This document shows positions 8,788 to 25,129 of a stretch of DNA of 64,000 bases, in pieces. The stretch is from a virus. The stretch is taken from IMG/VR virus record IMGVR_UViG_3300020171_000022, positions 2,449 through 66,448 of that record, one strand, 5' to 3'. Numbering within the stretch: the first letter of the stretch is position 1; each line of letters opens with the position of its first letter. Made by a program: the position numbers and the translations under genes. The notes beneath the pieces are model-generated. The model was not told where the DNA came from. It did no database searches and was given only the letters and a program-made list of their open reading frames with translations.

Positions 8788-10905
8788 ATGCCTGACTGGG
8801 AAGCCTACAAAGAAGCCTATGACAGAGGAGTTTTATCTGAAGAGAAAAAGGGTTTATATGAAGAGGCCATAAAAAGAAAATTAACTACAGGAGAACCGAC
8901 AACTTTACAACCTATTCAGGTAGGTGAAGAACCTGCTGGTGGTATGTTTGGTCTTCTTGGCAAATTAGGACTCAAAGAGAAACAGTTCATCACACCTCCG
9001 CCACCAGGAGGGCCTATTGAAGAACCCGGACTTAAACGCCCAGATATTGTCAGTGATCCAGTAGATGTAATACAAGGTATTTTGACTGGAGGAACTCTTG
9101 GGTTACTGAAAACCGGAGGAAAATTAACAAAGCCTGTTGCTGAAGAAGCATTGGCTTGGGCAACTTACAATGCTCCCGCTTTGGCCAAAAGTATCTATAA
9201 AGGCGTTTCTGGTGTAATCCCTGGTCTTTCTGCCAAAGCATTAGAGAAAACCATTCCCGTAGAAAAAGCTGCTCCGATAGCAATGCAGGTAGGAGAGAGT
9301 TTTCTTAGTAAGATTATACCTGGAATGGCTAAAGCAACCACCCCAGAAATGCAAGGGATTATTGATTTAGCAAAGAGAGAGAAAGTTTCAATCCTTGCTC
9401 CAGATGTTACGGGAAATAGAACACAAGCTCTTCTTTTTAATGCAGCGGATAAGGCAATAGGCGGTGCTGGTGTTACCCAAAAGGCAGCGGCAAGAACAAT
9501 TCAGGATATGAATGCTTATGGTCAAAGGGTTTTATCTGGATTGGGAGGAGAACTTGAAAAAGCTGGTTTAGGTGAAGTGGCAAGATTTGGGATGAAGACA
9601 AAATTTGATCCAGTAGAAAAATTTGGAGATAGTCTCTATGATATTGCAGCAAAAGAGGCAACAGGAACTCCAACGATCTTGAGTAATACTACAAAAATAG
9701 TAGATGAAATTAGGAAAACAAAAGATTTTCAGTATTTACCTGGGCCAATAAGATCAGTATTAAATAAAGTTTTTTCTGATATTAGTCCAGTTGCTAAAGT
9801 TACCGCTGGTACAAGATATGGAGGTATGCCACAAGATATTTTGGCTAAACTTCAAGAACAGGGAATTAGTAAAACAATGGATTTCTCCGAACTCGAATCT
9901 ATCCGAAGGGCTGTCTCAAAATTATCCTTTTATAAAGAAATCTCAGGGGATCAAGGTAATAGATTTGCCAAACAAGTTCTTGTGGCAATAGATAAGGATA
10001 TGGATTTAGCTGCCGCCAAGGCTGGTACACTCGCAAAGTCAGCTCTTGATGATGCAAGAAAATTCCAAAGGGAAGAAATATTCGGAGTATTTAAGGGTGA
10101 AACAGCATTAGGTAAGCCCTCCATTGGTAGAAGGATTTCCACAATTCAAAATGAGGATTTCCTAACTATTATCTCAAAGGGGAATCTAACAGAATTAAAA
10201 GATATGAAAAAGGTATTGCCTGAATCAACCATTCAAAATGTTAAGCAGGCATGGCTAACCGATTTGTTCTCTCGACATCAAAAAGACTTAATGACACCAC
10301 AGGGTATTGTAAAAGTTTTAAATGTTCCGGCGGCGGGTAGAGAAATAGATAAATTTGGGGATTTATACCTTAAAACTTTATTCAATAAACAAGAATTTCA
10401 AATGATAGACAACTTCAGAAAATTGTCTCAGCATATAGGGGCTGCCGAAAAAATAGCGGGCAACCCATCTGGTACAGCACAGACCATATATACTATCCAA
10501 CTAATTACAGGAGGATTATTGGCTGGATATGGGACATGGAAGGAAAGCCCTGTAAGTGCCGCCACGGGGTTAATTCTCACATTTGGAGGCCCCTATGGTA
10601 TCGCCAAATTTATGACATCCCCGACTGGATTTAGATATATGACTACAGGGATCGAGAAATCTCCTCTAATTAGGGATATTATTACTCAATCCCTAAAATC
10701 TGCTGCGATTGCGGGAACTCATGCAAATATAGATATAAGGCAAAGAGCTAGTATACCGATGGGAAAAACACCAACAGAATCAACCCAGATACCGATAATA
10801 CCAAGAGCAACCGGAGGCCCTGTTTCTCCTACGATAATAAAGAGTTCTATTGACAATATATTACCATTTGGTATTATATCTACAAGGGGGGCATTAAATA
10901 AGTGA
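8788..10905 (+). CDS. putative DNA transfer/ejection protein
   Basis: 705 aa, Ala/Gly-rich, NPSGTA followed by hydrophobic helices; last gene before the lysis module. Confidence 0.6.
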   Translation: MPDWEAYKEAYDRGVLSEEKKGLYEEAIKRKLTTGEPTTLQPIQVGEEPAGGMFGLLGKLGLKEKQFITPPPPGGPIEEPGLKRPDIVSDPVDVIQGILTGGTLGLLKTGGKLTKPVAEEALAWATYNAPALAKSIYKGVSGVIPGLSAKALEKTIPVEKAAPIAMQVGESFLSKIIPGMAKATTPEMQGIIDLAKREKVSILAPDVTGNRTQALLFNAADKAIGGAGVTQKAAARTIQDMNAYGQRVLSGLGGELEKAGLGEVARFGMKTKFDPVEKFGDSLYDIAAKEATGTPTILSNTTKIVDEIRKTKDFQYLPGPIRSVLNKVFSDISPVAKVTAGTRYGGMPQDILAKLQEQGISKTMDFSELESIRRAVSKLSFYKEISGDQGNRFAKQVLVAIDKDMDLAAAKAGTLAKSALDDARKFQREEIFGVFKGETALGKPSIGRRISTIQNEDFLTIISKGNLTELKDMKKVLPESTIQNVKQAWLTDLFSRHQKDLMTPQGIVKVLNVPAAGREIDKFGDLYLKTLFNKQEFQMIDNFRKLSQHIGAAEKIAGNPSGTAQTIYTIQLITGGLLAGYGTWKESPVSAATGLILTFGGPYGIAKFMTSPTGFRYMTTGIEKSPLIRDIITQSLKSAAIAGTHANIDIRQRASIPMGKTPTESTQIPIIPRATGGPVSPTIIKSSIDNILPFGIISTRGALNK

Positions 10906-12122
10906 CTACTCCCCTGAATAAATTCAGGGGCTTCTTGGGACAAGTCCCAGGCTCTGTAGTCCCAGAGCTAAAATATTTAAGGAGGCATTATAATCTCGAT
11001 GCAGACGAACATTACAAGTAGGGCATTGATGCCAACGGACAGACAAGTCTTTTTTGACTATAGTTCCGCATTGGCTACAAGTCTGACTTGTGCCTCTTGG
11101 GTTAATTGCTATAAACTGTCGAGCAGCTTCTTCCGCTTTCTGCGACAATATATTAGCAAATTGACTCCAGGCCACATCCGAAATAGATTTAGCCAGAAAA
11201 CCGTTTTGCAACATATTCTTGGTGTTAAGTTTTTCAATACAGATAATGCCAAATTTATTGACAATCTTTCTGGTTTCTTGGTGAATGAAATTATGTCGCC
11301 TATTAGAGATTCTCTCGTGGATACGAACAACAACTTTTTTAACCTTAGCTCTTTCAGAAGTGTTTTTAATTTGTTTAGACAATCTCCTTTGAGCCTTTGC
11401 AAGAGCCTTTTGGTCTGTCTTAAAAAAGCGAGGGTTCTTAATCTTCTCTTTAGTGGAAAAGGTGGCAAAATTCTCAAGTCCGACATCTATACCAACTGCT
11501 TTGGTAGTTTCAGACAATGGCTTAGGCTCATATTGAATAGAAAAACAGACATACCATTTTCCCGCTTGTTTTCTAATAATGCAAGTTTTAAGAGTTCCAA
11601 AAATAGGCCGATGTATTTTGATTTTAACAGAACCTATTTTAGAAAGTTTAAGACAATTAGTTTCTATATTCCAACCAAAGTCTGGCTGTTTATAGGTGAA
11701 ACTGTTATAACGGTCAAAATTTTTAAATCTTGGATACCCAGGGGTTTGTCCTTGTTTCACTCTACGAAAGAAATTTTGAAAGGCTTTGTCTATTCTGTCA
11801 GCCACATTTTGGAGGCTTTGCGAATAGACCTTGTTAAGAGAGGGTCTCTCTTTTTTCAAAGCAACAATAGATTTGCTTTGCTGAAAGTATCCTATGCTTT
11901 TCTTATCTTTTTCCCAGGAGTTCTTGCGTTCCTCCAGAAAATGATTATAGAGCCAGCGACACTCATCAAGAGTTTCTTGAAGAAGTCTTTGCTGTTTCTT
12001 GGTAGGATACAATCTATATTTAAGAGATTTATTCATATGTTAGATTATACCTTAAAGGAAAATAAATGTAAAGGGCAATTCATCCCCCGTTTAAAAACAG
12101 GGGCTTTCTTGCCCAATTAAAT
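10902..12122 (-). mobile_element. IS200/IS605-family non-autonomous element (tnpB only)
   Basis: left-end hairpin preceded by guide AAAG with target TTAC at 12123-12126 (- strand); right-end hairpin preceded by GAAG and ending TCAC; fits IS608-type guide/cleavage pairing. Confidence 0.85.
10924..12036 (-). CDS. tnpB: RNA-guided endonuclease TnpB
   Basis: KYRLYPT N-terminal HTH; RuvC motifs GIDVG, IEKL, RDYNASLNI; CSQC/CPTC Zn finger. Confidence 0.95.
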   Translation of the reverse strand: MNKSLKYRLYPTKKQQRLLQETLDECRWLYNHFLEERKNSWEKDKKSIGYFQQSKSIVALKKERPSLNKVYSQSLQNVADRIDKAFQNFFRRVKQGQTPGYPRFKNFDRYNSFTYKQPDFGWNIETNCLKLSKIGSVKIKIHRPIFGTLKTCIIRKQAGKWYVCFSIQYEPKPLSETTKAVGIDVGLENFATFSTKEKIKNPRFFKTDQKALAKAQRRLSKQIKNTSERAKVKKVVVRIHERISNRRHNFIHQETRKIVNKFGIICIEKLNTKNMLQNGFLAKSISDVAWSQFANILSQKAEEAARQFIAINPRGTSQTCSQCGTIVKKDLSVRWHQCPTCNVRLHRDYNASLNILALGLQSLGLVPRSP

Positions 12123-12813: not shown

Positions 12814-12978
12814 ATGCTACAAGGAAACAGAACTTATTTGATGGCGGTGGTGATTATCATTCACCAAATCCTTAACGCTATGGGGATGAAGGATATTACT
12901 GGAGAACAATTATCGATGGCGATTGATGTTATTCTGGGGATAGGAGTTTTCATCTTCAGGAAACTTGCAAAAAAATGA
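12814..12978 (+). CDS. putative holin (54 aa; not in the ORF track)
   Basis: MLQGNRTYLMAVVIIIHQIL...VILGIGVFIFRKLAKK: two hydrophobic helices, basic C-terminus, RBS AAGGAGG. Confidence 0.6.
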   Translation: MLQGNRTYLMAVVIIIHQILNAMGMKDITGEQLSMAIDVILGIGVFIFRKLAKK

Positions 12979-12989
12979 AAGGAGGAGTT

Positions 12990-13538
12990 ATGAAAAGAAA
13001 AATCAGTCTATTTCTGGTGATGGCGGTAATGATGGCGATGGTGGTATCCTGTACAGGGGTGCAGGAGAAATGGAACGCTCTCACTCCTGATGAGAAGGCT
13101 AGGGTCGTGGTTAGCGACATCCAGGCTCAACTCAATACCCTTTTTGATACCGGAAAGGCTTATGTGACGGCTAATCCAAAGTATCAAGAAAAGTGGAAAG
13201 GACAGATCGTTCCAGCTTTCGATGTGGCAAACAAAGCCCTTGCTTCTTCCATGATTCTTGCTAAAGCAGGAAAAATTACTCCAGATCAGGTTTATGCTCA
13301 AGTTCAACCTGTTCTAAATTCAGTTATTACCTTATTGGTATCTATTGGAGCAGTTAAACCTATTACAGCAGCCGTAGATATTATGATTGTTTTGGCTCTG
13401 ATTAACGGGTTGATGGGATTAGCCTATAACGCATGGTCAACCATTAATAAGGTTAAGGGTGATCAGAAGATACCGACCTGGGATGAGATTTTAGAGGAAA
13501 ATAAGAAATTACAGGACAAAATTGATGCGGAGAAATAG
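12990..13538 (+). CDS. lipoprotein with C-terminal hydrophobic helices (spanin candidate)
   Basis: signal peptide with lipobox-like VVSC; end of lysis module. Confidence 0.55.
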   Translation: MKRKISLFLVMAVMMAMVVSCTGVQEKWNALTPDEKARVVVSDIQAQLNTLFDTGKAYVTANPKYQEKWKGQIVPAFDVANKALASSMILAKAGKITPDQVYAQVQPVLNSVITLLVSIGAVKPITAAVDIMIVLALINGLMGLAYNAWSTINKVKGDQKIPTWDEILEENKKLQDKIDAEK

Positions 13539-13548
13539 TCCGTGCGGT

Positions 13549-13590
13549 GCAGGGCTTCTTTGCTACAGGCAGGGAGGCCCTTGCTTTTTT
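13549..13590 (+). terminator. Rho-independent terminator between convergent operons
   Basis: GCAGGGCTTCTTTGC/GCAGGGAGGCCCTTGC hairpin followed by T6. Confidence 0.7.
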
Positions 13591-13600
13591 CTGACATTCC

Positions 13601-13619
13601 GCTTATTGCACTGTTAGCC
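13601..13619 (+). other. attI-like recombination site of array A
   Basis: GCTTATTGCACT-GTTAGCC; core is complementary to GGCTAAC of the first attC; near-identical to the site at 25370-25388. Confidence 0.7.
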
Positions 13620-13799
13620 CTTTATTAATGAACGATAATCTTTTAATTTTTCCCTAAATCTTTGCTTCATCATATATGCATCGTAATCATAATTCCAATG
13701 ATCATATTTCCGAGCCATATAGGATTCGGCAATATCTAACAACTGGGCTAACAAGTCATTCGAGCGGACGTTTGATAGTCCACTATTTTCTTTGGTCAT
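13614..13799 (-). CDS. cassette protein, start encoded inside attC (MTKENSG leader)
   Basis: GAGG + ATG in the attC loop; TAA overlaps the GTTA core. Confidence 0.65.
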   Translation of the reverse strand: MTKENSGLSNVRSNDLLAQLLDIAESYMARKYDHWNYDYDAYMMKQRFREKLKDYRSLIKG

Positions 13800-13825
13800 A
13801 AATGCCTCTTCCGCTCAATTCTGCG

Positions 13826-14011
13826 TTATGTTGATTCTAATTTACTACCACACTCAGGACAAAAATTAACATTTACTATTGATGCAGAATTTTCTTTGTC
13901 TGGATATCCTGGTAAATATTTCTGCCAAATGGGTTGAGGATTTATTAATTCACACCAACATAACAATTCATTCGAGCGGACGTTTGATAGTCCACTATTT
14001 TCTTTGGTCAT
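13826..14011 (-). CDS. cassette Zn-finger protein with MTKENSG leader
   Basis: CWC...FCPECG; no Met outside the attC. Confidence 0.65.
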   Translation of the reverse strand: MTKENSGLSNVRSNELLCWCELINPQPIWQKYLPGYPDKENSASIVNVNFCPECGSKLEST

Positions 14012-14046
14012 AAATGCCTCTTCCGCTCAATTCTGCGTTATATGGA

Positions 14047-14268
14047 TTAAATTCTAAATGTAGGTTGATCTTTCCCTTCTCTCCAGAAAATGAATCGTTG
14101 CCACCAAAATTCTTTGGAAGCATAATTATATTCACACACAGGGCAAGTATAAAGATTTGGAGCATCTGAATTGCACCGAGGACAAAAACCAAACACAAGT
14201 CTTATCTTGCCCAAAATTCTATTCCTATTTGTTTGCAGTGACATAAAAGGAAGCCTCCGTATAATCAT
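14047..14268 (-). CDS. cassette Zn-finger protein
   Basis: CPRC...CPVC; fills the interval between two attC sites. Confidence 0.6.
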   Translation of the reverse strand: MIIRRLPFMSLQTNRNRILGKIRLVFGFCPRCNSDAPNLYTCPVCEYNYASKEFWWQRFIFWREGKDQPTFRI

Positions 14269-14308
14269 TTATTCCAGCCGATGCTAAAAAGCACGGCTGA
14301 CCTCTACG

Positions 14309-14851
14309 TTATACCTCAAAATAATGAATCTCATTACCCCATTGTTCCCAACCTTCACGTTGCTCTCTACTGAATACATCCATCTTCACGGCTTCAGGAT
14401 ACCAAAGGCTTATCATCTTATACGCAATGTCAGGCTTCCTGCTGTGCTGTCTTGCCGGTTCTCTTATCACTGTCATAAACTTACCCCTTGTCTCAGTGCT
14501 CACTGGCTGAAATTTTGGTTTGTAGAACCATGTTAAGTATTCATGAGCATACCGAACAGAGAAGGCGGGAGCTACACCGTTGCATTTATCCCATATCAGC
14601 CTTGCATGTCTGCGATAGCCTCTCTGCTCCATCGCCAGTTCGCCTATCATCAAAAACTCGTCAATGCCCCACAGAAAAACAGAATGCGTCTTTGTCGCCA
14701 TTGGGAAAACTTCCTTGTCTAAAAGCCCGAAAATTGCCATAACATCAAGCGTGGCGTAATCAAGGTTTTTCCCTTGCCGTGGCCTTGCACTTCTCAGACC
14801 CCCCTTCTTTTTAGGCCAAGGGGGATCAATAACGAAAATATTAAATGACAT
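14309..14851 (-). CDS. MT-A70 family adenine methyltransferase (cassette)
   Basis: IDPPW, HSRKP, FSRE..GW..WGNE motifs. Confidence 0.9.
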   Translation of the reverse strand: MSFNIFVIDPPWPKKKGGLRSARPRQGKNLDYATLDVMAIFGLLDKEVFPMATKTHSVFLWGIDEFLMIGELAMEQRGYRRHARLIWDKCNGVAPAFSVRYAHEYLTWFYKPKFQPVSTETRGKFMTVIREPARQHSRKPDIAYKMISLWYPEAVKMDVFSREQREGWEQWGNEIHYFEV

Positions 14852-15172
14852 AACCAGCCAATCAACCCGACCGGGAATAGTCCTGGCGGGTTATCCGCAC
14901 GTTATTTTTCCTCTTCTTCCCCTTCACACTCATGCCCAATTTCGCCTGAAGTATCCGCCCCACATTTTAGGCAGACATACCCAGGCCCATTATCGATGAA
15001 AAATGAATACATATCTATTACTTTTCCTCTTTGTCATCAATTATTCGCCATCTAAGATGATAGGCAGCTATTTTTTTGATGTCGAACAAATGCCCATTTA
15101 ATACCTTCAATTCTTTGATTAATGCCTCAATCATTGGCAGAATCTTCTCTAAGTCAAGCATCTCTCACCTCA

Positions 15173-15358
15173 TCAATCTGGCAATTTGATATTGAAATCT
15201 CCCAATGCCTGATTCACTTTCAATAACAATTCTTTTCCATTTTCTATAAATTTTGCTTGCTCTTCGTTAATCGGGTCCTGACTTATCATCCAAAGCAATT
15301 TTGTTCGACAGTCAAGAAGGGCATTAATGAGCTCTTTGATTTCCGTGTTGGTCAACAT
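15173..15358 (-). CDS. hypothetical protein
   Basis: 61 aa, RBS GGGGAG, coupled to neighbouring small ORFs. Confidence 0.55.
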   Translation of the reverse strand: MLTNTEIKELINALLDCRTKLLWMISQDPINEEQAKFIENGKELLLKVNQALGDFNIKLPD

Positions 15359-15556
15359 TTATCTCCCCACCTCCCCCCTGTAAAGATCCTTCCAGTTATC
15401 CCTTGACTCCTTTAGGTTGGCAACCTCTGCCTCCAACTCCTTGATAATTGTCTCATCCCAATCATGCTTGGCAAGCAACTCCTTGATACGTTGAGTAAGT
15501 TGTTTTACATATTCATAATTTTTAGGCTTAGGTCTCATCTCTTCCCCCTTTATGTT

Positions 15557-15766
15557 CTAAATAGGAGTAGTCTCGTTATTGTTCACATTCTTTCGCCCCC
15601 TGAATCGCAATTCAAGGGCATTAGGCGTATTTCTGTATGCATCACACCTGTCCATGCGAATATGATCTTTTAGTCCAATCAAATCAAAATCTTTCTCACC
15701 GCAAAAGGGGCAACATAACAAGTCATTAGAGCGGACGTTTGATAGCCCGCTATTTTCTTTGGTCAT
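15557..15766 (-). CDS. cassette Zn-finger protein with MTKENSG leader
   Basis: GGAGG + ATG inside attC; CPFCG...H motif. Confidence 0.65.
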   Translation of the reverse strand: MTKENSGLSNVRSNDLLCCPFCGEKDFDLIGLKDHIRMDRCDAYRNTPNALELRFRGRKNVNNNETTPI

Positions 15767-15801
15767 TCATACCTCCGCCGCTCAATTTTACGTTGGGCGG
15801 A

Positions 15802-15981
15802 TCAATCATGGACATAATCCATAATCTCTCCGGTTGAACAAACACCCTCAAGTAGTTCGGCATTAGTGGGTGTAATAATCACCGAAACATGGGGGTGACA
15901 ATTATCGCACAGGAATTTAAGTAATGGGCGGCAAATGGTGTCAAACTCGGATCTTTGTTGGTCTGTCAGTATCATGGTCAT
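15802..15981 (-). CDS. cassette hypothetical protein (59 aa; not in the ORF track)
   Basis: MTMILTDQQRSEFDTICRPLLKFLCDNCHPHVSVII...; RBS AAGGAG. Confidence 0.6.
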   Translation of the reverse strand: MTMILTDQQRSEFDTICRPLLKFLCDNCHPHVSVIITPTNAELLEGVCSTGEIMDYVHD

Positions 15982-16062
15982 CTCCTTTTAAATTAAGGTT
16001 CTGGGCAAATCGCCCAACCAGCGGGTCCAGCGGATGGCCAAGAGCCACCCCTGACCCAGACG

Positions 16063-16224
16063 TTATGTGGAACTAAATGTTGGTTCTTCATCTCTCATCA
16101 CTATTGCCGATTGTTTGCCCTCACACTCGTCTGGGCATGTATAAATATCAAATCTTGAAAGTGGGTATAGTTGTCTTCCAAAAACCATTTCCTTTCCACA
16201 TTGTGGACATTTGGGTATTTCCAT
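16063..16224 (-). CDS. cassette Zn-ribbon protein
   Basis: MEIPKCPQCG...CPDEC; RBS GGAG; stop in the core site. Confidence 0.6.
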   Translation of the reverse strand: MEIPKCPQCGKEMVFGRQLYPLSRFDIYTCPDECEGKQSAIVMRDEEPTFSST

Positions 16225-16385
16225 GGTAATCTCCATTAAAAAATGATAAGACCTCCACATAACAAGTCAATCCAGCGGACGGTCAATAAGCAGGTATCTC
16301 GGCCCAAACATCATCCTGACCTTCTGTTATGCTTTCGCATTGGGCAAGGTGCTTTCGCCACTATTGGCCGCCGCTGATCTCTACG

Positions 16386-16616
16386 TTATCTGATAAAAAT
16401 TGCGAACAATCCCCCAATGGTGCATCCAACCAGAGCAGATCCGCCACCAATGCATTGCGCAACGATTGCGGAGGTTTCTGTCGTAAGCAATAAATGTGAT
16501 CCAAGTAATGTAAAAAATGCACCAAAAATAATAATACAAGAACAAAGAAAAAGAAGAGTATGATTATCCCGACAGATAACAACGGCATCGATCAGACGCC
16601 GAATAAAACTTGTCAT
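16386..16616 (-). CDS. cassette membrane protein, start inside attC
   Basis: two hydrophobic helices; ATG in the attC loop; TAA in the core site. Confidence 0.6.
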   Translation of the reverse strand: MTSFIRRLIDAVVICRDNHTLLFLCSCIIIFGAFFTLLGSHLLLTTETSAIVAQCIGGGSALVGCTIGGLFAIFIR

Positions 16617-16655
16617 TTTTTACCATCCCTTCTCCGGCGCAGATCATGCCGGACG

Positions 16656-16934
16656 TTAGGTGTCACAAATCAATAATTTGACTTTTGCATCGACAAGTCG
16701 CCTTTTTAAAAAGCTTATATCCCGCTCGAAACGCCGGATGATATATTGCCATGCATCATGTTTGCTTTGATAAATATCCCCGATGCGAAGACATTTTTTG
16801 ATGCCATCAAGATAAAGCCATCCAGATTTAGTTGTTTTAAGTATTAAATATGGTCCCTTGGGTTCTTGGCCCTCAATAATCCAACACCTAACAATCGGCT
16901 GCACTTGAGCCTTAACAACTCTTTTAGATTTCAT
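16656..16934 (-). CDS. cassette hypothetical protein, start inside attC
   Basis: AAGGAGG-AACC-ATG in the attC loop; TAA in the core site. Confidence 0.7.
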   Translation of the reverse strand: MKSKRVVKAQVQPIVRCWIIEGQEPKGPYLILKTTKSGWLYLDGIKKCLRIGDIYQSKHDAWQYIIRRFERDISFLKRRLVDAKVKLLICDT

Positions 16935-17038
16935 GGTTCCTCCTTACCGGCCAAGTGAGCCGGAACGTTATCTGACATTAAACAATTCATTCTCAAAAAA
17001 TATATATGATATGATGATGGAGAATGGTAGGTTCATGT

Positions 17039-17668
17039 TTATCCTTTTTTAATCTGTTTATTAAGATAATAAAAGTCTAAAAGTTTTAAAAATGCCTCAA
17101 AATGGAGGGATAAATCTGTTTTAACTTCTTCCTTGAAAGACTCATCCTCTGTCCGGGGAATGTTTAGGATACGATATCTCTGGATAGGTTCTGTAATCAA
17201 TTTGCCATACCCTGCCACCTGAAGCCACATCTCCTCATAAATCCCACTCCCAGTTTTAAAATCTACAATCTCAAGGGTTCCATCAATAAACCCATATAAA
17301 TCAAAGGCCCCACCATATTTATATTCTTCCGACACCGCTTGATGTTCCATTAAAATAGGTTCAATTTTATGCTGTTTCTCCCATTCCAAATAGGACAAGA
17401 ATGAATTTTCGGCGGCATCAATCTGATTCTTGCTGTAATCCTCTGTCTCTGGTTCACGCTTCGAGAGATGGGCAAGAATCATCTCGTGGGCAAGAGTTCC
17501 AATATCAGCTTTATCGTCTCGAAATTTACTTGAATCAATTCCTGCAAGTCCTAATTTATTCGCCCATATAATCAGGGCAGGTTTTGAAAGTTGACCCGTA
17601 ACAGTCGTTACACCAACGACTATTTCCCCTGATTCAAGTTTATATCTCTGATGTGCTTTAGATTTCAT
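17039..17668 (-). CDS. PD-(D/E)XK exonuclease (phage recombination nuclease)
   Basis: GVTTV, GTLAHE, GAFD...VDFKTG, QVAGY motifs. Confidence 0.85.
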   Translation of the reverse strand: MKSKAHQRYKLESGEIVVGVTTVTGQLSKPALIIWANKLGLAGIDSSKFRDDKADIGTLAHEMILAHLSKREPETEDYSKNQIDAAENSFLSYLEWEKQHKIEPILMEHQAVSEEYKYGGAFDLYGFIDGTLEIVDFKTGSGIYEEMWLQVAGYGKLITEPIQRYRILNIPRTEDESFKEEVKTDLSLHFEAFLKLLDFYYLNKQIKKG

Positions 17669-17676
17669 CTATCCTC

Positions 17677-17925
17677 CTAAAAGGGAACATTTTGTTCATC
17701 ATCCTTCAGTGATTGCTTATTCTGTTTTCCACCAAGAATATCCATTAAAAATCCTTTAAATTTCTCAAGGTGCTCATGCTTAATCGTGAGATTTTGATAC
17801 TTTTTGTTTTCCTTGAAGGTTGTAATTTTCTTTAAACTTACAAACGAATATTCTCTGCCATCCTTCTTGAAAGTAGCATCCTCATCCCATTCATATTCAA
17901 TTGTATCAAGGTGTAGCCTTAGCAT
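17677..17925 (-). CDS. small putative ssDNA-binding protein
   Basis: acidic DDEQNVPF C-terminus; located between ERF and exonuclease. Confidence 0.5.
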   Translation of the reverse strand: MLRLHLDTIEYEWDEDATFKKDGREYSFVSLKKITTFKENKKYQNLTIKHEHLEKFKGFLMDILGGKQNKQSLKDDEQNVPF

Positions 17926-18599
17926 TATTTCTTCTCCTCTGCAAATTGACTTTTTAGATGATCTTTGTAGGCCACCAGTTCGTTAAACTCTACCGCTGGT
18001 AATAGTTTTATGTCCGCTCCATGCTTCTTCCACCAGTTTTGTAATTCAAAAATGCTTTTAATATCATGCATTCGATTTTGATATTCTTCAAACGTTGAAG
18101 AGGCGGGCGGAGGCTGGTCACTGGAATCTTTTCTTATCCCCTTCGTCTCTTTTTTTAACTTATTCTTTGTCTCAATTCCCCTTCCCACAGCCCCCTCACC
18201 GTCATCATCTTCGGGCGCAATCCCCGCAATCGCAGCCAAAGTATACCTACGGGCATAGGTTAGGGCAGACCCAAGACTTTGGGGATCTTCTGATGCAGTC
18301 CAACCCTCCCCCTGTTTCTGTCTCATCGGATTAATGGGATATATTCCTGAAATGGATTCCCCACTAATATGAGAAAGGATTGTTTCAAGGTATAATTTCC
18401 CTTCGATCATTTTTGTAATCTGGATGACTGCAAGACCATTATCCGTCAATGGTTTTCGACAGGCTTCCCAGACGGAGGCAAGGTCGGCATATGAAGCCTT
18501 GAAATATGGGTTTTCAGAGTCTTTTATGGCTCCCTGAATTATGGATTGTGCTTTACTAAGAGCTTCGGTTAATTTACTTAACGCCTTACTCTCTTCCAT
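17925..18599 (-). CDS. erf: ERF-family single-strand annealing protein
   Basis: NPYFKASYADL and GSALTYARRYTLAAIAGIAPEDDDG motifs. Confidence 0.92.
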   Translation of the reverse strand: MEESKALSKLTEALSKAQSIIQGAIKDSENPYFKASYADLASVWEACRKPLTDNGLAVIQITKMIEGKLYLETILSHISGESISGIYPINPMRQKQGEGWTASEDPQSLGSALTYARRYTLAAIAGIAPEDDDGEGAVGRGIETKNKLKKETKGIRKDSSDQPPPASSTFEEYQNRMHDIKSIFELQNWWKKHGADIKLLPAVEFNELVAYKDHLKSQFAEEKK

Positions 18600-19119
18600 C
18601 TTCTTCCTCCTTTCTTATTTTTTCGTGAAGTTCACGATGGCAATTTGAGCAAAGAGAAATACATTTTTTTAATTCTTTTAATGTTCGTTCTGTCGGTTTA
18701 CTTGAAAAAATTTTTCCGCTCGGAGTTTCTTTTTGTCCGGGATTTATATGGTGAAGATCAATTGCACAAAATGAACGATTATATCCGCACACTGAACAAT
18801 GAATAAGATCGAGTTTATTTAATATTTGCATCCAATATTCTTTGTTTTTTTTGTAAAAATTAGCATTATGTTTTTTTTGAATCTCTCTGTTTCCAGGTAT
18901 GGAAAGCCACATATTTCTATGTTTAAGACGACCCTTTAAATTACAATCCTTACATTTTTTGGGATAACGGCGCTTGGGTTCATATCTTTTATATTTTTTA
19001 ATAAAAAATTCATTTAATGATTTTATTTCTCCGCACTTTGTGCATCTTTTCTCGGTCAAAGTAATACGACTTGCATTTAGGACACCTTCTAACATCGGAA
19101 CATCTGGGATACCATCCAT
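18586..19119 (-). CDS. HNH-type homing endonuclease
   Basis: KRCTKCGEIK, CSVCG, DLHHINP, LCSNCHRELH. Confidence 0.8.
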   Translation of the reverse strand: MDGIPDVPMLEGVLNASRITLTEKRCTKCGEIKSLNEFFIKKYKRYEPKRRYPKKCKDCNLKGRLKHRNMWLSIPGNREIQKKHNANFYKKNKEYWMQILNKLDLIHCSVCGYNRSFCAIDLHHINPGQKETPSGKIFSSKPTERTLKELKKCISLCSNCHRELHEKIRKEEEDGRE

Positions 19120-19273
19120 GACCGCACCTCAGACATTTGACACTTTGAATTTTAATCTTCATGGTTTAATTGTATCCCTTATAAGTAAGTTTGTCAAGTT
19201 TTATTTTTCCATCGAAAATGCCCGCCTCCGGATCCCCTCTTCTAAGTTCCGGTTAAAGCCAGGCGGGGATGGC

Positions 19274-19498
19274 TTATTTGTCCCACTCTGCACGTTTAGA
19301 AATTTCAGCCTCGATTAGGGGCAATATTCTTTTTATTTCCCGAATTCTAATTTCAAAAGAGCTTAACAAACCCTTTCCATCCTTTAAGGATTCTTGCCAA
19401 CCCTCTAGGGTTAAATACCCATATTGATCTTTTTTCCAATGCCAACTGAAATGCCACGAGGAATCTATGATGTCATAAATTTCAGATTCTAAGCTCAT
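19274..19498 (-). CDS. hypothetical protein
   Basis: 74 aa in the leftward operon, RBS AGGGGAG. Confidence 0.55.
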   Translation of the reverse strand: MSLESEIYDIIDSSWHFSWHWKKDQYGYLTLEGWQESLKDGKGLLSSFEIRIREIKRILPLIEAEISKRAEWDK

Positions 19499-19510
19499 CT
19501 CCCTGTCTCC

Positions 19511-19699
19511 TTATTTCTTAATCTTCAAGGTCGTCTCTAAACCCGTTATCCTTCCTGTCAAACTCCCAATGTCTTTATCGTTCTGGTATACCATTTTTCT
19601 TATCTCATCTGCTTTCCAATCTCGCCAAATATAGCCTGCTTCAAAACTTGACAACATAAGGGCCAAGATAAATATTATCCAAACAATTGTCTCTCTCAA
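19511..19699 (-). CDS. small membrane protein
   Basis: N-terminal transmembrane helix. Confidence 0.55.
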   Translation of the reverse strand: MRETIVWIIFILALMLSSFEAGYIWRDWKADEIRKMVYQNDKDIGSLTGRITGLETTLKIKK

Positions 19700-19886
19700 G
19701 TTCCATCACCTCCAGCGCTAAATTTAATTCCTGAAGCTTCAGGGCTATCTCCGCCTGCATCTCAAGCAGAACCCCAATATCCCCCTGGAAAGACTGATCG
19801 ATTTGGAGGCTTCTCCAGGTGAAGCCTATTGCAACCCCCAGAAGCAATATCAGGAATATTTTTATAACTTTCTCCCACATAAACAT
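19641..19886 (-). CDS. small membrane protein
   Basis: N-terminal transmembrane helix plus coiled coil; RBS AAGGAGG. Confidence 0.5.
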   Translation of the reverse strand: MFMWEKVIKIFLILLLGVAIGFTWRSLQIDQSFQGDIGVLLEMQAEIALKLQELNLALEVMELERDNCLDNIYLGPYVVKF

Positions 19887-19964
19887 TCAACCTCCTTAAT
19901 AGCCATAAGATAAGTTTGAGCTTCCGATAATGGATGAAATTTTTGATTCTAAACATCAAACGAA

Positions 19965-20312
19965 TCATTCTATTCCCTCGTCGGTGGGTTCATATGGGGC
20001 AACTTTTTTCTTTCTCCCTTTTTTCGGTTTGACATAAAAAGGACTTTTATCTTCGGAAAGACTTTTTAACGTTTCAGGAAACTTTTCGGCATGTTCTACG
20101 GGAGGAACATCCCGAAATCTTCCAGAATCAGAAGTTCCTTTTGCCGCCTCAATTTCTGCCTTCTTCCGCCTATTTCTTCTTGGCTTCGGAGGTTCCGGGC
20201 GATTGATTTCGCCGATGAGAACTTTGGTTTCGATGGCATGAAGAGCAATTGCAAGAGACCTTTGCGCCTCCAATATAAGCCGCTTGATTTCCGATAAGTT
20301 AATCGTTTCCAT
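19965..20312 (-). CDS. hypothetical basic protein
   Basis: 115 aa, RBS AAGGAGG. Confidence 0.65.
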   Translation of the reverse strand: METINLSEIKRLILEAQRSLAIALHAIETKVLIGEINRPEPPKPRRNRRKKAEIEAAKGTSDSGRFRDVPPVEHAEKFPETLKSLSEDKSPFYVKPKKGRKKKVAPYEPTDEGIE

Positions 20313-20712
20313 GATTTACCTCCTTTTTATGTTTTGTGATATGGTAATTATTACATCTTGGGCACTGATAAATCTTAAAGCTCGTCCAGTCCGCCGTTTT
20401 TTGACCATACTTCATTTTGGTAGCAATTGCGGTGACAGCATCAATCTCTGAATCGTAACTTTGCTTCTTCCCGCAGAGGCCTTTTGATAGAATCTCTTTT
20501 ACCTCCTTCCTGGGCAGGCATCCTTGACTTTAGACACCTGCCCCTTTGCTAGCCTCCCCCTTCTGCCGACTCTCACGACTTGAAGGTTAACCCCTCCGTT
20601 GCCTTATCGGCTGTCCCCTGCCCCTGCCCCGAAGGTCGATGAGGTCTTATGTATGGACACGGAGGTGATGGTCGTTTATATGCCTTTTGCCTTCCCTTTT
20701 CCTTTTGTTTAC

Positions 20713-20741
20713 ATTAAAGCATATTTTTTACCTGTTGTCAA
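20713..20741 (-). promoter_or_regulatory. sigma70-type leftward promoter
   Basis: TTGACA-17 bp-TTTAAT with extended TG; faces the recombination operon and array A. Confidence 0.65.
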
Positions 20742-20807
20742 GAGAAATCTTCACTTTTTAAAAAATAATTCAACAAGGGTATTGACAAGAACTAAAAAGT
20801 ATGATAT

Positions 20808-20993
20808 ATGAATTACATGAAACAATTAGAATTGGCTAAAAAGATAGGCATTTCAAGGACTTATTTGAACGGTATCTTGAATGAAAAAAGGATTCCTGGA
20901 ATTGAATTAGCAAAAAGAATAAGTAAAATTACCGGCAAAGATTTCTTTGAGATGAGAAAAGATATAAAAAAATTGTTAAAGGAGCTACTGTAG
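20808..20993 (+). CDS. Cro/CI-type HTH regulator
   Basis: QLELAKKIGISRTYLNGILNEKRIPG; TTGACA at 20782 just upstream, divergent from the leftward promoter. Confidence 0.85.
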   Translation: MNYMKQLELAKKIGISRTYLNGILNEKRIPGIELAKRISKITGKDFFEMRKDIKKLLKELL

Positions 20994-20994
20994 A

Positions 20995-22731: not shown

Positions 22732-23023
22732 GGGAGATCATCGAGGGCATCTACTTCTAGTGAGTTGCGGCCAATAGGGTGAAAACCAAAATAAGAGATT
22801 GCATAAGACAATCCATATGAGTGAAAGGCTCTTCTATTGGCCGTCAACTCCAGTGATTTGTTATCTTGCTTGACTCAATAGGAATGACAAAAAGTGCTAA
22901 CCCGAATAACACTGACAAATCATTCGGCTGACGGGCAGCAAACCGGAACCGTAATAGTTTCGGGGTTAAGCAAGATAACGTAGAGGTCAGCGGCGCTTTG
23001 GGTGTCCGCTGGAGTGATTGGTT

Positions 23024-23209
23024 ATGCCAGATATAATCCAAGAGATCCACCAAATCGAAGAAATTGCGTGGCAATGGTTTGCAGAGATATATCCACATGA
23101 ATGCTATGCCAGTTGGCCTGACCGATTCTGGGACTTCTTCCATATCAAATGTCCTAATGTGACACGTGAACAGATGGAACGGATACTTTCAGAAACGGAT
23201 GATGCATAA
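23024..23209 (+). CDS. cassette hypothetical protein
   Basis: ATG within GTTATGC box; TAA within GCATAAC. Confidence 0.6.
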   Translation: MPDIIQEIHQIEEIAWQWFAEIYPHECYASWPDRFWDFFHIKCPNVTREQMERILSETDDA

Positions 23210-23280
23210 CGTAGAGGTCAGCGGCGCTTTGGGTGTCCGCTGGAGTGATTGGTTAGGCGAAAACCACGAAAGGAGATTAT

Positions 23281-23469
23281 ATGGAAGATAACGAAAAATG
23301 TACAGTGCAATGTGACTCAAGGGTTGGTTCAGTATGTATGAAATATGCAAAAATGATTATGCGAAATAAAGAATCAAATAAATATGACCATGTTAATTCC
23401 ACAGAAGTAGGGATAAAAGTCCCGCAATGTTTATTTGCCGATAGTAAACGGCAAGGACACGTTGCCTAA
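23281..23469 (+). CDS. cassette Cys-rich protein
   Basis: RBS AAGGAG; stop in GCCTAAC. Confidence 0.65.
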   Translation: MEDNEKCTVQCDSRVGSVCMKYAKMIMRNKESNKYDHVNSTEVGIKVPQCLFADSKRQGHVA

Positions 23470-23525
23470 CGTAGAAATCAGCGGGAGCCTTTGGCAATCC
23501 GCTGGATTGACTGGTTAGGTGATTT

Positions 23526-23744
23526 ATGACCTTTGAATTATTTAATTGCACCCAAGTTCTTTTACGAGAGATTGCCATGCCCAAAGTAAGGCAAAAAGAT
23601 ATTTCTGCTACCTATGCTCTTGCGCTGCGGAGTTCCGATCCAACTGATTGGAAATCTGTAAATGAGGCAATCATAAAAAGATGGAGCCTATCTGGGTTAA
23701 AGCGAATTAAAGATATGGCTTGGTCTGGAAAATGTTTCACCTAA
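23526..23744 (+). CDS. cassette hypothetical protein
   Basis: 72 aa; RBS AGGTGA overlaps the attC box; stop in ACCTAAC. Confidence 0.7.
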   Translation: MTFELFNCTQVLLREIAMPKVRQKDISATYALALRSSDPTDWKSVNEAIIKRWSLSGLKRIKDMAWSGKCFT

Positions 23745-23818
23745 CGCAAAGGTCAGCGGCGTGTCGCACGTCCGCTGGAGTGACTTGTTATATTTTTTAT
23801 TAAAGTGAGGGAAGAAAA

Positions 23819-23965
23819 ATGAAATGCACCGATTGCGGCAAAGAACTTTCCAAGGAACAAGAAAAACATAATGAAGAAATAGCAGTAAAATCAGGAACAA
23901 AGAAATTAGATATGTGTGGTAATTGTTGGGCAGATTATTGCCGGCACGCTGAAACGGGTCAATGA
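23819..23965 (+). CDS. cassette Zn-finger protein (48 aa; not in the ORF track)
   Basis: MKCTDCGKEL...MCGNCW. Confidence 0.6.
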   Translation: MKCTDCGKELSKEQEKHNEEIAVKSGTKKLDMCGNCWADYCRHAETGQ

Positions 23966-24031
23966 ATATAACGTGCGGATAACCCGCCGCTATTGGCGGT
24001 CGGGTTGATTGACTGGTTATACGGAGGTCTT

Positions 24032-24184
24032 ATGTCTTTATTTTCTGATGAAGAGATTTGTATCGGTTGTAAATATGCCATGTTTCACGATTGTTGCCAT
24101 AAATTTTGTTTTTGTGATGAAAACCATGAAAGTGATAGAGACCATGTTTGTGGCAAGTGCCCATATAAAATTAATTCCACATAA
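24032..24184 (+). CDS. cassette Cys-rich protein
   Basis: RBS GGAGG; eight Cys in 50 aa; stop in ACATAAC. Confidence 0.6.
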   Translation: MSLFSDEEICIGCKYAMFHDCCHKFCFCDENHESDRDHVCGKCPYKINST

Positions 24185-24254
24185 CGTAGAGATCAGCGGT
24201 GCTTTAAGCATCCGCTGGAGTGATTGGTTATCTGATCTTTATACGGGAGGATAT

Positions 24255-24425
24255 ATGACTGATAAAGAAAAATTGGTGGGGATACGACAAGCATTGAAAG
24301 ACATAATAGCCTATCCTAAAGAAGGGGGTTATCCTTCCGAGGTAGTTTACGATAAGTTTGCGTATAAACGTATCGTGAAATCGTATCGTGATGGGCTTAA
24401 ACAAGTTCTTCGTGACTACAGATAA
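24255..24425 (+). CDS. cassette hypothetical protein
   Basis: RBS GGAGG; MTDKEKL...; stop in AGATAAC. Confidence 0.65.
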   Translation: MTDKEKLVGIRQALKDIIAYPKEGGYPSEVVYDKFAYKRIVKSYRDGLKQVLRDYR

Positions 24426-24451
24426 CGATGAAGATAAGCGGGCGGGCACAA

Positions 24452-25048
24452 ATGATGAATGAAAATAAAAGGGCTATTTCCGCTCCGCTTGATCGCCTTG
24501 TTATACCTCATGGGGGTTTCCGGTGTATCGTGGCCGATCCGCCGTGGCATTATGGCGTATGGGGCGGGGGTAGCGGAAGAGGATCGCGAGGTCTTGTTTT
24601 GGATGGGAAAAGTGTTCCGATGCCTTATCCAACTATGACAATTGATGAAATCGCCGCACTCCCCGTTGATAGATGCGCCGCAAATAATTGCGACCTGTAT
24701 CTATGGACAACGCAGAAATACTTGCCAGATGGTTTCAGGATTATGCAAATATGGGGCTTCCGGTATTGTCAAACCTTGACTTGGTGTAAGATTCCGCGAG
24801 GACTTGGGCAAGGCGGATTGTTCTGTCCGACAACAGAATTTATACTATTGGGGCGCAAAGGAACAATGCCACAGGGTAAGCGGCGTATTGATTCGACATG
24901 GTGGCAAGTCAAACGCCCGCATAACTCGCACAGCACAAAGCCTGAATTTTTTCAAGATTTGATTGAACAGGTGAGCAATGAGCCACGGCTGGAATTGTTT
25001 GCCCGCCGTTTTCGTTTAGGATGGACGGTATGGGGTAATGAGGTATAA
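24452..25048 (+). CDS. MT-A70 family adenine methyltransferase (cassette, start inside attC)
   Basis: ADPPW, YPTM, HSTKP, ELFAR..GW..WGNE; no Met between the attC and DPPW. Confidence 0.9.
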   Translation: MMNENKRAISAPLDRLVIPHGGFRCIVADPPWHYGVWGGGSGRGSRGLVLDGKSVPMPYPTMTIDEIAALPVDRCAANNCDLYLWTTQKYLPDGFRIMQIWGFRYCQTLTWCKIPRGLGQGGLFCPTTEFILLGRKGTMPQGKRRIDSTWWQVKRPHNSHSTKPEFFQDLIEQVSNEPRLELFARRFRLGWTVWGNEV

Positions 25049-25129
25049 CGTAGAGGTCAGCCGCACTTTTGAGTGTCGGCTGGAGTGACTGGTTATACGT
25101 TTTTTAATTTTATCATGGAGGTTAAAAAC

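What the first reader, a model, noticed from the sequence alone, without database searches (positions are those of the whole stretch)
13746..15798. Three unrelated cassettes share the attC-encoded leader MTKENSGLSNVRSN(D/E)LL
Seen: near-identical attC sites at 13746, 13958 and 15713 are joined to three unrelated bodies in the same frame, and similarity stops at the box. Established: how cassettes are created is unresolved. Inference: this may be a snapshot of cassette genesis, in which one attC-plus-start module is repeatedly attached to headless phage gene fragments.
Basis: partly seen in the sequence, partly recalled or inferred. Interest (0 to 1): 0.7.

Follow-up and report, generated by a model that had tools for sequence, protein, structure and literature searches.

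The report
Phage gene cassettes sharing attC-encoded start
Three small phage genes start inside nearly identical copies of an integron recombination site that supplies their ribosome-binding site, start codon and first 17 codons, which is a new twist on a known kind of mobile gene cassette and not clear evidence of how cassettes are born.

Summary
Three 86-nt repeats (13746-13831, 13958-14043, 15713-15798; 97% and 83% identical) each carry a Shine-Dalgarno sequence and an ATG. Each opens an ORF beginning MTKENSGLSNVRSN(D/E)LL that runs in frame into an unrelated body.

The repeats are true integron-type attC sites. They are 3 of at least 15 such sites in two integrase-less arrays (CALINs) in a groundwater phage fragment. 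A covariance model built from them also finds the attC sites of aadA1, ereA2, aac(6')-IIc and blaIMP-1.

Those control hits always fall on the strand opposite the cassette gene. In the phage the hits fall on the coding strand. So the phage genes lie on the attC bottom strand, and each cassette carries its own attC, leader and body. The stop codon is usually the TAA at the crossover point.

The same leader occurs on at least four more bodies elsewhere (L018, L036, P0002, P0005).

The "cassette genesis from headless fragments" reading is only partly supported. Lar-like cargo behind attC-internal starts has a near-complete domain. A homologue of body 1 keeps the same junction behind a different leader. 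Near-identical attCs on unrelated cargo are normal for arrays.

Phage CALINs are already published. The inverted layout and the in-frame attC leader appear to be new. The scan's own notes on this same window (e1-6179833, e1-6179835, e1-6179837) said the same, and I tested them here.

The parts
13746..13831 (-). Leader attC copy 1. Read on the minus strand: R' box ACATAAC, 5-nt spacer, 3-bp helix, L stem GAGCGGA, SD AAGAGG, ATG at 13799-13797, leader codons, L stem TCCGCTC, bulged G, AAT, spacer, R'' box GTTAGCC.
   Evidence: (61.6 bits)
13614..13799 (-). ORF 1 (61 aa): the leader MTKENSGLSNVRSNDLL plus body AQLLDIAESYMARKYDHW... The stop TAA lies in a remnant CTAAC box. The cassette unit spans 13614-13825 (212 nt).
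   Evidence: homologue P0006
13958..14043 (-). Leader attC copy 2 (97% identical to copy 1), ATG at 14011-14009.
   Evidence: (61.8 bits)
13826..14011 (-). ORF 2 (61 aa): the leader plus a Cys-rich body (CWC...CPEC). The stop TAA is the TTA of the G|TTA core of copy 1. The cassette unit spans 13826-14037 (212 nt).
15713..15798 (-). Leader attC copy 3 (83% identical to copy 1). SD GGAGG, ATG at 15766-15764, R' box degenerate (CCCAAC), bulged T in place of G.
   Evidence: (58 bits)
15557..15766 (-). ORF 3 (69 aa): the leader plus body CCPFCGEKDF... It is the first of five small ORFs in one 891-nt cassette unit (14902-15792).
13614..16661 (-). Array 1. Eight attC sites on the minus strand (model strand): 13746-13831, 13958-14043, 14259-14314, 14848-14907, 15713-15798, 16012-16068, 16257-16391, and a weaker one at 16574-16661. 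A possible ninth lies just outside these bounds at 16886-16973 (17.6 bits, E 0.07). Cargo includes an MT-A70 methyltransferase (14309-14851) and small Zn-ribbon ORFs.
22973..25098 (+). Array 2. Eight attC sites on the plus strand (model strand): 22973-23027, 23204-23258, 23464-23520, 23739-23793, 23966-24022, 24179-24233, 24420-24506, 25043-25098. The site at 24420-24506 also holds start codons that read into the MT-A70 gene (24428-25048).

Best explanation
The three repeats are paralogous members of a long (86-nt) subfamily of integron attC recombination sites. They sit in one of two integrase-less cassette arrays in the early-gene regions of an uncultured groundwater phage. In these phage arrays the genes are encoded on the strand that equals the attC bottom strand, which is the strand integron integrases recombine. 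Each cassette therefore has its own attC in front of its gene, and its stop codon is usually the TAA of the xTAA|C crossover box at its far end.

In the long subfamily the normally free loop of the attC hairpin (the variable terminal structure) holds a Shine-Dalgarno sequence and an ATG. Translation then runs through the 3' arm (L and R boxes, read as ...VRSNDLL) in a fixed phase into the cargo. The attC thus doubles as a portable translation-initiation region plus a 17-residue N-terminal leader.

What is shown: the attC anatomy and strand, the in-frame fusions, the recurrence of the module on at least 7 bodies, and the conserved SD and ATG. What is inferred: that the leader ATG is the start used, that a host integron integrase supplied in trans moves the cassettes, and that the cargo (two MT-A70 methyltransferases in the window, small zinc-ribbon proteins, Lar-like proteins in related contigs) serves anti-restriction. 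The shared leader reflects common descent and homogeneity of attC sites within a cassette pool, as is usual for arrays. It does not reflect three fresh fusions to truncated genes.
For: attC identity.
- Fifteen window sites align with a conserved R box, a 5-nt spacer, a 3-bp helix, one bulged base, a 6-bp stem and an invariant bulged T.
- Covariation supports this fold.
- Model R1, built from these sites, finds the aadA1 attC of R100 (39.5 bits, E 7e-7). It also finds attC-position sites in three further class 1 integrons (5 of 5 hits with E<0.05).

Strand.
- All 6 of those control hits lie on the strand opposite the cassette gene.
- The same polarity holds in four bacterial loci: L028 and L030 next to IntI, and L013 and L015.
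- In the window all 15 sites lie on the coding strand, including both Pfam-supported MT-A70 genes.
- The bulged G, 6-bp stem and bulged T on the arm opposite 5'-AAC-3' match the bottom-strand description in Nivina 2016 (PMC5027507, passages read).
- G skew is positive on the model strand in 15 of 15 sites, as that paper reports for bottom strands.

Leader.
- The SD and ATG are conserved while the spacer between them varies among five DNA copies.
- All 5 DNA-ascertained copies are in frame with an ORF that runs to the next xTAAC box. If frames were random, this would have probability (1/3)^5, about 0.004.
- The Cys motifs of bodies 2 and 3 begin right after the leader, with no other ATG, GTG or TTG start in frame.
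- The leader recurs on other bodies: L018, L036, P0002 and P0005.
- Other long attC sites also hold in-frame starts: 24420-24506, 16574-16661, L018 9709-9832 and 10279-10377, and L005 6879-6972.

No integrase.
- There is no PF00589 match in the 66-kb record, nor in a related contig (G006) that also carries an array and that CheckV rates 100% complete.
Against: - No experiment or RNA data show that the leader ATG is used. No RNA run holds the stretch.
- The leader attC hairpins are weak as DNA: -7 to -9.5 kcal/mol, z about -0.3 to -0.9. Their competence for recombination is therefore unproven.
- No integron integrase is linked to this phage or its unknown host.
- The two MT-A70 cassettes share the rarer CAGCCG stem variant in the attC that follows them in the sense direction (84% identity, against 51% for the attC that precedes them). 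That pattern would fit the opposite gene-attC pairing. It is weak evidence, because the proteins are only 27% identical and the variant also occurs in other contigs.
- The record is only 58% complete, so an integrase could lie on the missing part.
Confidence: 0.72

Rival explanations
1. Cassette genesis in progress. One attC-plus-start module is repeatedly attached to 5'-truncated phage genes, and the three copies are recent products of that process.
For: One module sits on at least 7 unrelated bodies, with similarity ending at GTTA. With genes on the bottom strand, the attC-body junction is not the normal crossover point, so some other joining process is needed. Copies 1 and 2 are 97% identical and adjacent.
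Against: Where the cargo behind an attC-internal start can be assigned, the Lar domain is nearly complete. P0006 keeps the SNDLLA junction at 56% identity to body 1 behind a different leader, so that junction is old. No homologue with a native N-terminus outside a cassette was found for any body. attC homogeneity across unrelated cargo is a general property of arrays (recalled, not tested here).
Confidence: 0.12
2. Secondary spread of the module among pre-existing cassettes. Homologous recombination or gene conversion between similar attC sites, or rare integrase crossovers on the top strand at the R'' box (G|TTA on the coding strand), move the leader-bearing attC in front of other bodies. Only in-frame products survive.
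For: Similarity ends exactly at GTTA, where a top-strand crossover would fall. Top-strand recombination occurs at about 1000-10,000 times lower frequency (Nivina 2016, passage read). The phage encodes an ERF recombinase. Several long attC sites share the same reading phase through ...RSNDLL, so bodies would be interchangeable. A contig in run X2 lacks exactly one attC-to-attC unit.
Against: Both ends of any attC are constrained boxes, so the breakpoints do not discriminate between mechanisms. ORF 1 and P0005 share three residues (AQL) beyond the box. No direct recombinant was seen. The X2 joint could be an assembly collapse across a 50-nt repeat.
Confidence: 0.3
3. The leader is not translated. 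The real starts lie downstream, and the open frame through the attC arm is a by-product of sequence constraints on the hairpin.
For: Two of the three frames through the 3' arm are open. Short ORFs inside attC or attI sites that act only by translational coupling are known (review PMC8876359, sections 3.1-3.2 read). Some long sites here hold short ORFs that stop in the arm: 16257-16391 and L008 8665-8752.
Against: All 5 DNA-ascertained copies are in frame with the body. There is no alternative start before the first Cys pair in bodies 2 and 3. A conserved SD lies 5-6 nt before the ATG while the spacer varies.
Confidence: 0.1
4. The repeats are not integron sites. They are phage-specific intergenic regulatory hairpins (for example terminator, promoter or processing cassettes) that merely resemble attC.
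For: No integrase is in the record. The hairpins are thermodynamically weak. Rfam gives no match, though whether Rfam holds an attC family was not checked.
Against: The geometry is shared in detail with aadA1 attC: T bulge, 6 bp, G bulge, 3 bp, 5-nt spacer, GTTA. The model cross-hits four different resistance-cassette attC sites and bacterial arrays beside IntI. The exact 19-nt arm motif is present in 6 bacterial genome loci. The model confirms an attC there in 3 of the 6, L013, L015 and L016, and three of five of those genomes searched (G001, G002, G005) encode an integron integrase above the family cut-off.
Confidence: 0.05

Closest known systems
Integron attC sites and gene cassettes (e.g. 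the aadA1 cassette of In2 on plasmid R100)
   Same: Imperfect inverted repeats with RYYYAAC/GTTRRRY-type boxes, an unpaired spacer, an L stem, extrahelical G and T separated by 6 bp, and a variable loop. One site per small promoterless gene. Arrays of such units. Checked against the real aadA1 site.
   Different: In the class 1 integrons examined, the gene lies on the top strand with attC after its stop (6 of 6 control sites). Here the genes lie on the bottom strand, with attC in the 5' leader. No integrase or attI is present. The hairpins are AT-richer and weaker.
CALINs in bacteriophage genomes (Qi et al. 2023, PMC9892861; abstract, sections 2.1 and 3.4 read)
   Same: Clusters of attC sites without an integrase in phage genomes, including virulent ones. 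Methyltransferase cargo. Proposed access to anti-restriction genes.
   Different: That survey of 10,705 GenBank phages found 17 CALINs, each required to hold at least two sites. In the sections I read it does not describe genes lying on the bottom strand or start codons inside attC. Its figures and supplements were not seen. This phage has at least 15 sites in two arrays. blastn of array 2 found no match in 50,697 GenBank phage records.
ORF-11/ORF-18 of attI1 and short ORFs within attC sites (review PMC8876359, sections 3.1-3.2 read)
   Same: A recombination site that carries its own SD and ATG, whose reading frame runs into the adjacent cassette and promotes its translation.
   Different: Those ORFs are described there as short peptides that act by translational coupling. 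ORF-11 spans the crossover point of attI1 on the top strand. Here the start lies in the attC loop on the bottom strand, belongs to the same cassette as the gene, and is fused in frame as the gene's own N-terminus.
Homogeneous attC families of sedentary chromosomal integrons, such as Vibrio cholerae repeats (recalled, not tested here)
   Same: Many unrelated cassettes in one array or lineage carry nearly the same attC.
   Different: The conserved part here includes the loop, which is normally the variable part, and it is coding.

Membership tests
Integron attC recombination site | Inverted R''/R' core boxes with the conserved AAC/GTT triplets | tested here: met
   AAC is invariant and the GTT triplet is kept in 14 of the 15 aligned sites (14259-14314 has ATT). 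The three innermost R-box pairs are standard in 15, 15 and 14 of 15 sites.
Integron attC recombination site | L boxes forming a stem, with extrahelical bases (usually G, then a conserved T after a 6-bp stem) on the arm opposite 5'-AAC-3' of the recombined strand, and an unpaired central spacer of 5-6 nt | tested here: met
   Alignment A1 shows a bulged base (G in 14 of 15 sites, T in copy 3), a 6-bp stem with covariation, an invariant T and 5-nt spacers. The description comes from Nivina 2016. The geometry matches the real aadA1 fold.
Integron attC recombination site | Similarity in sequence and structure to accepted attC sites | tested here: met
   Model R1 hits the attC sites of aadA1, ereA2, aac(6')-IIc and blaIMP-1: 6 of 6 attC-position hits at 18-40 bits. 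Only one other weak hit appeared in 45 kb.
Integron attC recombination site | Recombined by an integron integrase | not testable with these tools
   This needs a suicide-conjugation or excision assay.
Complete integron | intI gene and attI site next to the array | tested here: not met
   No PF00589 match in the 66,448-b record, which is only 58% complete. None in the related complete contig G006. G007 has a generic tyrosine recombinase scoring 36.7 bits against TIGR02249, whose cut-off is 265.
CALIN (cluster of attC sites lacking an integrase) | Two or more attC sites close together with no integron integrase nearby | tested here: met
   Eight and eight sites spaced 200-900 nt apart. No integrase.
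Canonical integron gene cassette | Gene on the attC top strand, with attC downstream of the stop codon | tested here: not met
   All 15 window sites match R1 on the coding strand. In class 1 integrons and four bacterial loci, R1 matches the strand opposite the genes.
ORF-11-type translational coupler | A short ORF in the recombination site that ends before or near the cassette gene's own start | tested here: not met
   The leader ORF continues for 61-69 codons to the cassette end, with no separate start for the body.

The most novel reading that the evidence does not exclude
A lineage of environmental phages keeps its own pool of 'reverse-sense' integron cassettes. Genes sit on the attC bottom strand. 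The ORF fills the unit from the attC loop to the TAA at the crossover point. A standard reading phase through the attC arm (...RSNDLL | body) makes cargo interchangeable behind a common attC-encoded translation start. Such cassettes could be shuffled between co-infecting phages by a host integrase or by the phage's own ERF recombinase. They would be silent if captured by a bacterial integron, and bacterial cassettes would be silent in the phage. This would amount to a private exchange system for counter-defence genes.
Probability: 0.3. Interest if true: 0.8.

Novelty: new variant of a known kind. Interest (0 to 1): 0.6.

Why it matters
Integron cassettes are normally described as a promoterless gene followed by its attC, and how gene and attC come together is unknown. 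Here the attC lies in front of the gene, on the recombined strand, and in one subfamily it encodes the gene's ribosome-binding site and N-terminus.

This gives an in-frame junction that can be read off the sequence and followed across many cassettes. Tracing how attC sites and cargo are paired and re-paired therefore becomes tractable.

It also extends the recent finding of integron parts in phages. The arrays here are much larger, sit in uncultured groundwater phages, and carry probable anti-restriction cargo. That points to integron-style shuffling on the phage side of the arms race.

If the inverted layout is general for phage arrays, cassette finders that assume gene-then-attC will pair each phage cassette gene with the wrong attC.

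Tried and rejected
- Rfam scan of the window at gathering thresholds: 0 matches. Whether Rfam holds an attC family was not checked, so this says little.
- My first regex scans for sites used the wrong spacing and were discarded. and model R1 replaced them.
- I first read the coding strand as the attC top strand, because stops fall in xTAAC boxes. That would have made the leader a gift of the upstream cassette. I rejected it after the strand controls.
- Homologue searches for the three bodies found only the window's own proteins, leader-only hits (P0002, P0005) and one cassette homologue (P0006). No non-cassette relative turned up. These searches cover limited length ranges and small proteins, so absence is weak evidence.
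- Pfam and PHROGs gave nothing above threshold for the three bodies or for P0002, P0005, P0006 and the L036 body.
- I tried to decide by comparison which flanking attC travels with a gene. Only the two MT-A70 genes and one membrane protein were informative, and they gave no clear answer.
- blastn of array 2 against GenBank phages: no match.
- No RNA holder was listed for the stretch, so expression could not be examined.
- Parts of the laid stretch without cover in runs X2 and X3 are not interpreted.
- I found no paper describing bottom-strand (inverted) cassette arrays in phages or attC-encoded in-frame leaders in searches. Supplements and figures of Qi et al. 2023 were not seen and may show gene orientation.
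- The exact 19-nt arm motif occurs in MAGs of several phyla, so it does not identify a host.
Full report
**What is there**

The window is part of an IMG/VR virus record of 66,448 bases, rated 58% complete. Its genes are phage genes:
- an ERF recombinase, a primase-polymerase/helicase and Dam and N6/N4 methyltransferases;
- an M15 endolysin and a TnpB;
- a large terminase and a portal or adaptor-like protein.

Two short regions hold arrays of imperfect palindromes: 13.6-16.7 kb, with genes on the minus strand, and 22.97-25.1 kb, with genes on the plus strand. The palindromes separate small ORFs.

The finding concerns three of these palindromes. One search shows one 88-nt repeat family at 13749-13836, 13961-14048 (97%) and 15716-15803 (83%). 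One search shows that the ORFs 13614-13799, 13826-14011 and 15557-15766 all begin MTKENSGLSNVRSN(D/E)LL and then diverge. Their only mutual similarity is the leader.

**The repeats are attC sites**

Fifteen sites from both arrays align, on the coding strand, in this order:
- xxATAAC;
- a 5-nt spacer;
- a 3-bp helix;
- a 6-bp GC-rich stem;
- a loop of 10 to about 90 nt;
- an invariant T;
- the other half of the stem;
- one bulged base;
- the other half of the 3-bp helix;
- a 5-nt spacer;
- GTTAxxx.

Pair counts support the fold: 86.7% of cells are paired, against at most 42% when partners are slid. Seven of 16 pairs change on both sides, for example CAGCGG/CCGCTG, GAGCGG/CCGCTC and AACCCG/CGGGTT.

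I built covariance model R1 from these sites. In the window it finds the 15 training sites, one further site at 16574-16661 (21.8 bits), and weak candidates at 16886-16973 and 22749-22866. Outside the window it finds:
- the aadA1 attC of plasmid R100 (39.5 bits, E 7e-7);
- in three other class 1 integrons, the sites behind ereA2, aadA1, aac(6')-IIc (twice) and blaIMP-1, which are 5 of 5 hits with E<0.05;
- sites in bacterial contigs beside integron integrase genes.

The real aadA1 site, read from R100 and folded, has the same geometry: T bulge, 6 bp, G bulge, 3 bp, 5-nt spacer, GTTA.

No tyrosine recombinase is present in the record. The arrays are therefore clusters of attC sites lacking an integrase (CALINs).

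**Which strand**

This decides how the leader should be read. Three independent lines agree.

1. In every canonical control, the R1 hit lies on the strand opposite the cassette gene. This holds for R100 and three other plasmids, 6 of 6 sites. It also holds for four bacterial loci, two of them next to IntI with the array running away from it. In the phage all 15 sites lie on the coding strand, and that includes the two Pfam-supported MT-A70 genes.

2. Nivina et al. [quoted passage not shown] They describe a G, a 6-bp stem and a conserved T. That is the arrangement on the phage coding strand.

3. The same paper reports G enrichment of the bottom strand. GC skew is positive on the coding strand in 15 of 15 sites.

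So the phage genes lie on the attC bottom strand. The bottom-strand crossover is at xTAA|C. One cassette, read in the sense direction, is therefore: the C of the crossover box, then the rest of the attC, then the gene, ending ...xTAA.

The leader, its SD and the body belong to the same unit, and no ORF crosses a crossover point. In my reading, the gene's stop codon is the TAA of that box at 12 of the 15 sites, and also at the remnant box that ends ORF 1. Cassette units 1 and 2 are each 212 nt.

Related viral contigs (L001, L005, L007, L008, L018) show the same co-orientation. In 32 of 42 inter-site intervals the longest ORF is on the model strand, in 9 it is on the opposite strand, and 1 is a tie. 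This is a crude count, and I left out L004 because it duplicates L001.

**The leader as a translation start**

In the three copies, and in two more DNA copies from other contigs (L018 9270-9355 and L036), a purine-rich SD (AAGAGG, GGAGG or GGGAG) lies 5-6 nt before the ATG. The SD and ATG are conserved while the spacer between them varies. The 51 nt from the ATG to GTTA differ at only 5 columns.

All five DNA-ascertained copies are in frame with an ORF that runs to the next xTAAC box. If the frames were random, the chance would be about 0.004. Bodies 2 and 3 begin their Cys motifs directly after the leader and have no other start codon in frame.

Protein searches found two more leader fusions:
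- P0002 (65 aa), which to my eye resembles Lar-family proteins but has no Pfam hit;
- P0005 (94 aa), which is Cys-rich.

The module is thus joined to at least seven different bodies.

It is not the only such site. Other long attC sites also contain starts that read through the arm into the cargo:
- 24420-24506, in front of an MT-A70 gene;
- 16574-16661;
- L018 9709-9832 and L018 10279-10377;
- L005 6879-6972.

The two long L018 sites use the same phase and end in ...RSNDLL. Three long sites instead hold short ORFs that stop in the arm or in the R'' box (by my reading; L001 6147-6236 would have to start at TTG).

**Does this show cassette genesis?**

Only weakly.

Points in favour:
- On the bottom strand, the attC-body junction is not the normal crossover point. 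Ordinary cassette shuffling therefore cannot explain one attC sitting on seven bodies.
- Similarity ends exactly at GTTA.

Points against a fresh fusion to headless fragments:
- No leader-family body could be assigned to a family. In two cassettes that start inside other long attC sites and do have a family-level assignment, the Lar restriction-alleviation domain is nearly complete. Profile positions 2-55 of 58 match in L018 at 28.9 bits. Positions 3-58 of 58 match in L005 at 23.2 bits, below the cut-off.
- The one homologue of body 1 found by an exhaustive search (P0006, 56% identity) keeps the junction SNDLLA but has a different loop-encoded leader. That junction predates considerable divergence.
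- A homologous membrane-protein cassette starts inside the attC in the window but downstream of it in L018. This suggests that starts also shift in place.
- None of the three bodies has a detectable non-cassette relative.

Exchange among existing sites remains open. Possible routes are homologous recombination, since the phage has an ERF recombinase, and rare top-strand integrase crossovers. Nivina 2016 puts the latter at 1000-10,000 times lower frequency, and they would cut exactly at G|TTA.

**Population data**

Contigs of three groundwater runs were laid on 13000-26000. In run X2, from a different study, one contig is identical to the window on both sides but skips 22975-23205. That is exactly one attC-to-attC unit, and the joint is ambiguous over the 50 nt of the repeat. 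This fits loss or gain of a cassette, but an assembler could also collapse such a repeat.

In run X1, which is probably the source sample, contigs break at attC sites. Many joints and loose ends are anchored in attC arms. One loose end at 15715 continues into the body seen in L036. A diverse cassette pool therefore shares these arms.

**Comparison with what is known**

Phage CALINs with methyltransferase cargo are already published (Qi et al. 2023, PMC9892861; abstract and sections 2.1 and 3.4 read). Phage-borne attC sites were shown there to recombine with IntI1.

Recombination sites that carry a translation start are also known. ORF-11 and ORF-18 of attI1, and short ORFs within attC sites, act by translational coupling (review PMC8876359, sections 3.1-3.2 read).

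Three things were not described in the papers and passages I read, nor in any paper listed by searches:
- whole arrays with genes on the bottom strand;
- an attC loop that encodes the in-frame N-terminus of the cassette's own gene;
- its reuse on many bodies.

The scan's own first-reader notes on this same window (e1-6179833, e1-6179835, e1-6179837) state the inverted layout, the start-module idea and the cargo. I reached the same points with tools before reading those notes, and I tested them here.

**Verdict**

The elements are integron-type attC sites in phage CALINs. The shared leader is an attC-encoded translation start and N-terminal extension on the bottom strand. The genesis reading is possible but unproven, and its 'headless fragment' part is not supported.

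I class this as a new variant of a known kind, of moderate to high interest. Its main value is that it provides a sequence-readable, in-frame attC-gene junction for studying how cassettes are assembled and exchanged in phages.

Noticed in passing
window 22975-23205: A contig in a groundwater run from another study (X2) matches the window exactly on both sides but lacks this 231-nt attC-to-attC unit. It is either a cassette presence/absence variant or an assembly collapse across the 50-nt repeat.
   Followed up: partly
window 14902-15792: The cassette unit behind leader copy 3 is 891 nt and holds five small ORFs in a row (69, 59, 61, 47 and 36 aa) with no attC between them. One of them (15359-15538) resembles the C-terminal end of a 268-aa protein in the related contig (L033 136-942).
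   Followed up: no
L036 (minus strand), after the leader-fused ORF: The next gene (MITKLAV...) follows directly after an ATAACG remnant, with no attC. In L018 the homologous gene is preceded by a full attC (9998-10052). This looks like loss of an attC that fused two cassettes.
   Followed up: no
window 13515-13622: Array 1 ends with an attC-like left half (CTAAC...AAGCGG) that runs into the convergent terminator hairpin after the lysis-region gene 12975-13538. Model R1 did not call it.
   Followed up: no
window 10924-12036 and 38059-39174: Two minus-strand ORFs of about 370 aa sit inside plus-strand late-gene regions. Each has a near full-length open frame on the opposite strand (10999-12120 and 38122-39258). 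The first ORF is TnpB by Pfam. The second was not scanned here and is named only in an earlier scan note.
   Followed up: no
G006 (contig of L007, 93,790 b): A phage contig rated 100% complete by CheckV carries at least 7 attC sites of the same type (L007 7354-9590) and has no tyrosine recombinase match.
   Followed up: partly
window array ORF C-termini: Several cassette proteins in the window and in L018 end in ...ST (five of them in ...EST, ...SST or ...NST), because the box before the crossover reads (TC[A/C]) ACA TAA. The last residues are therefore also set by the recombination site.
   Followed up: no
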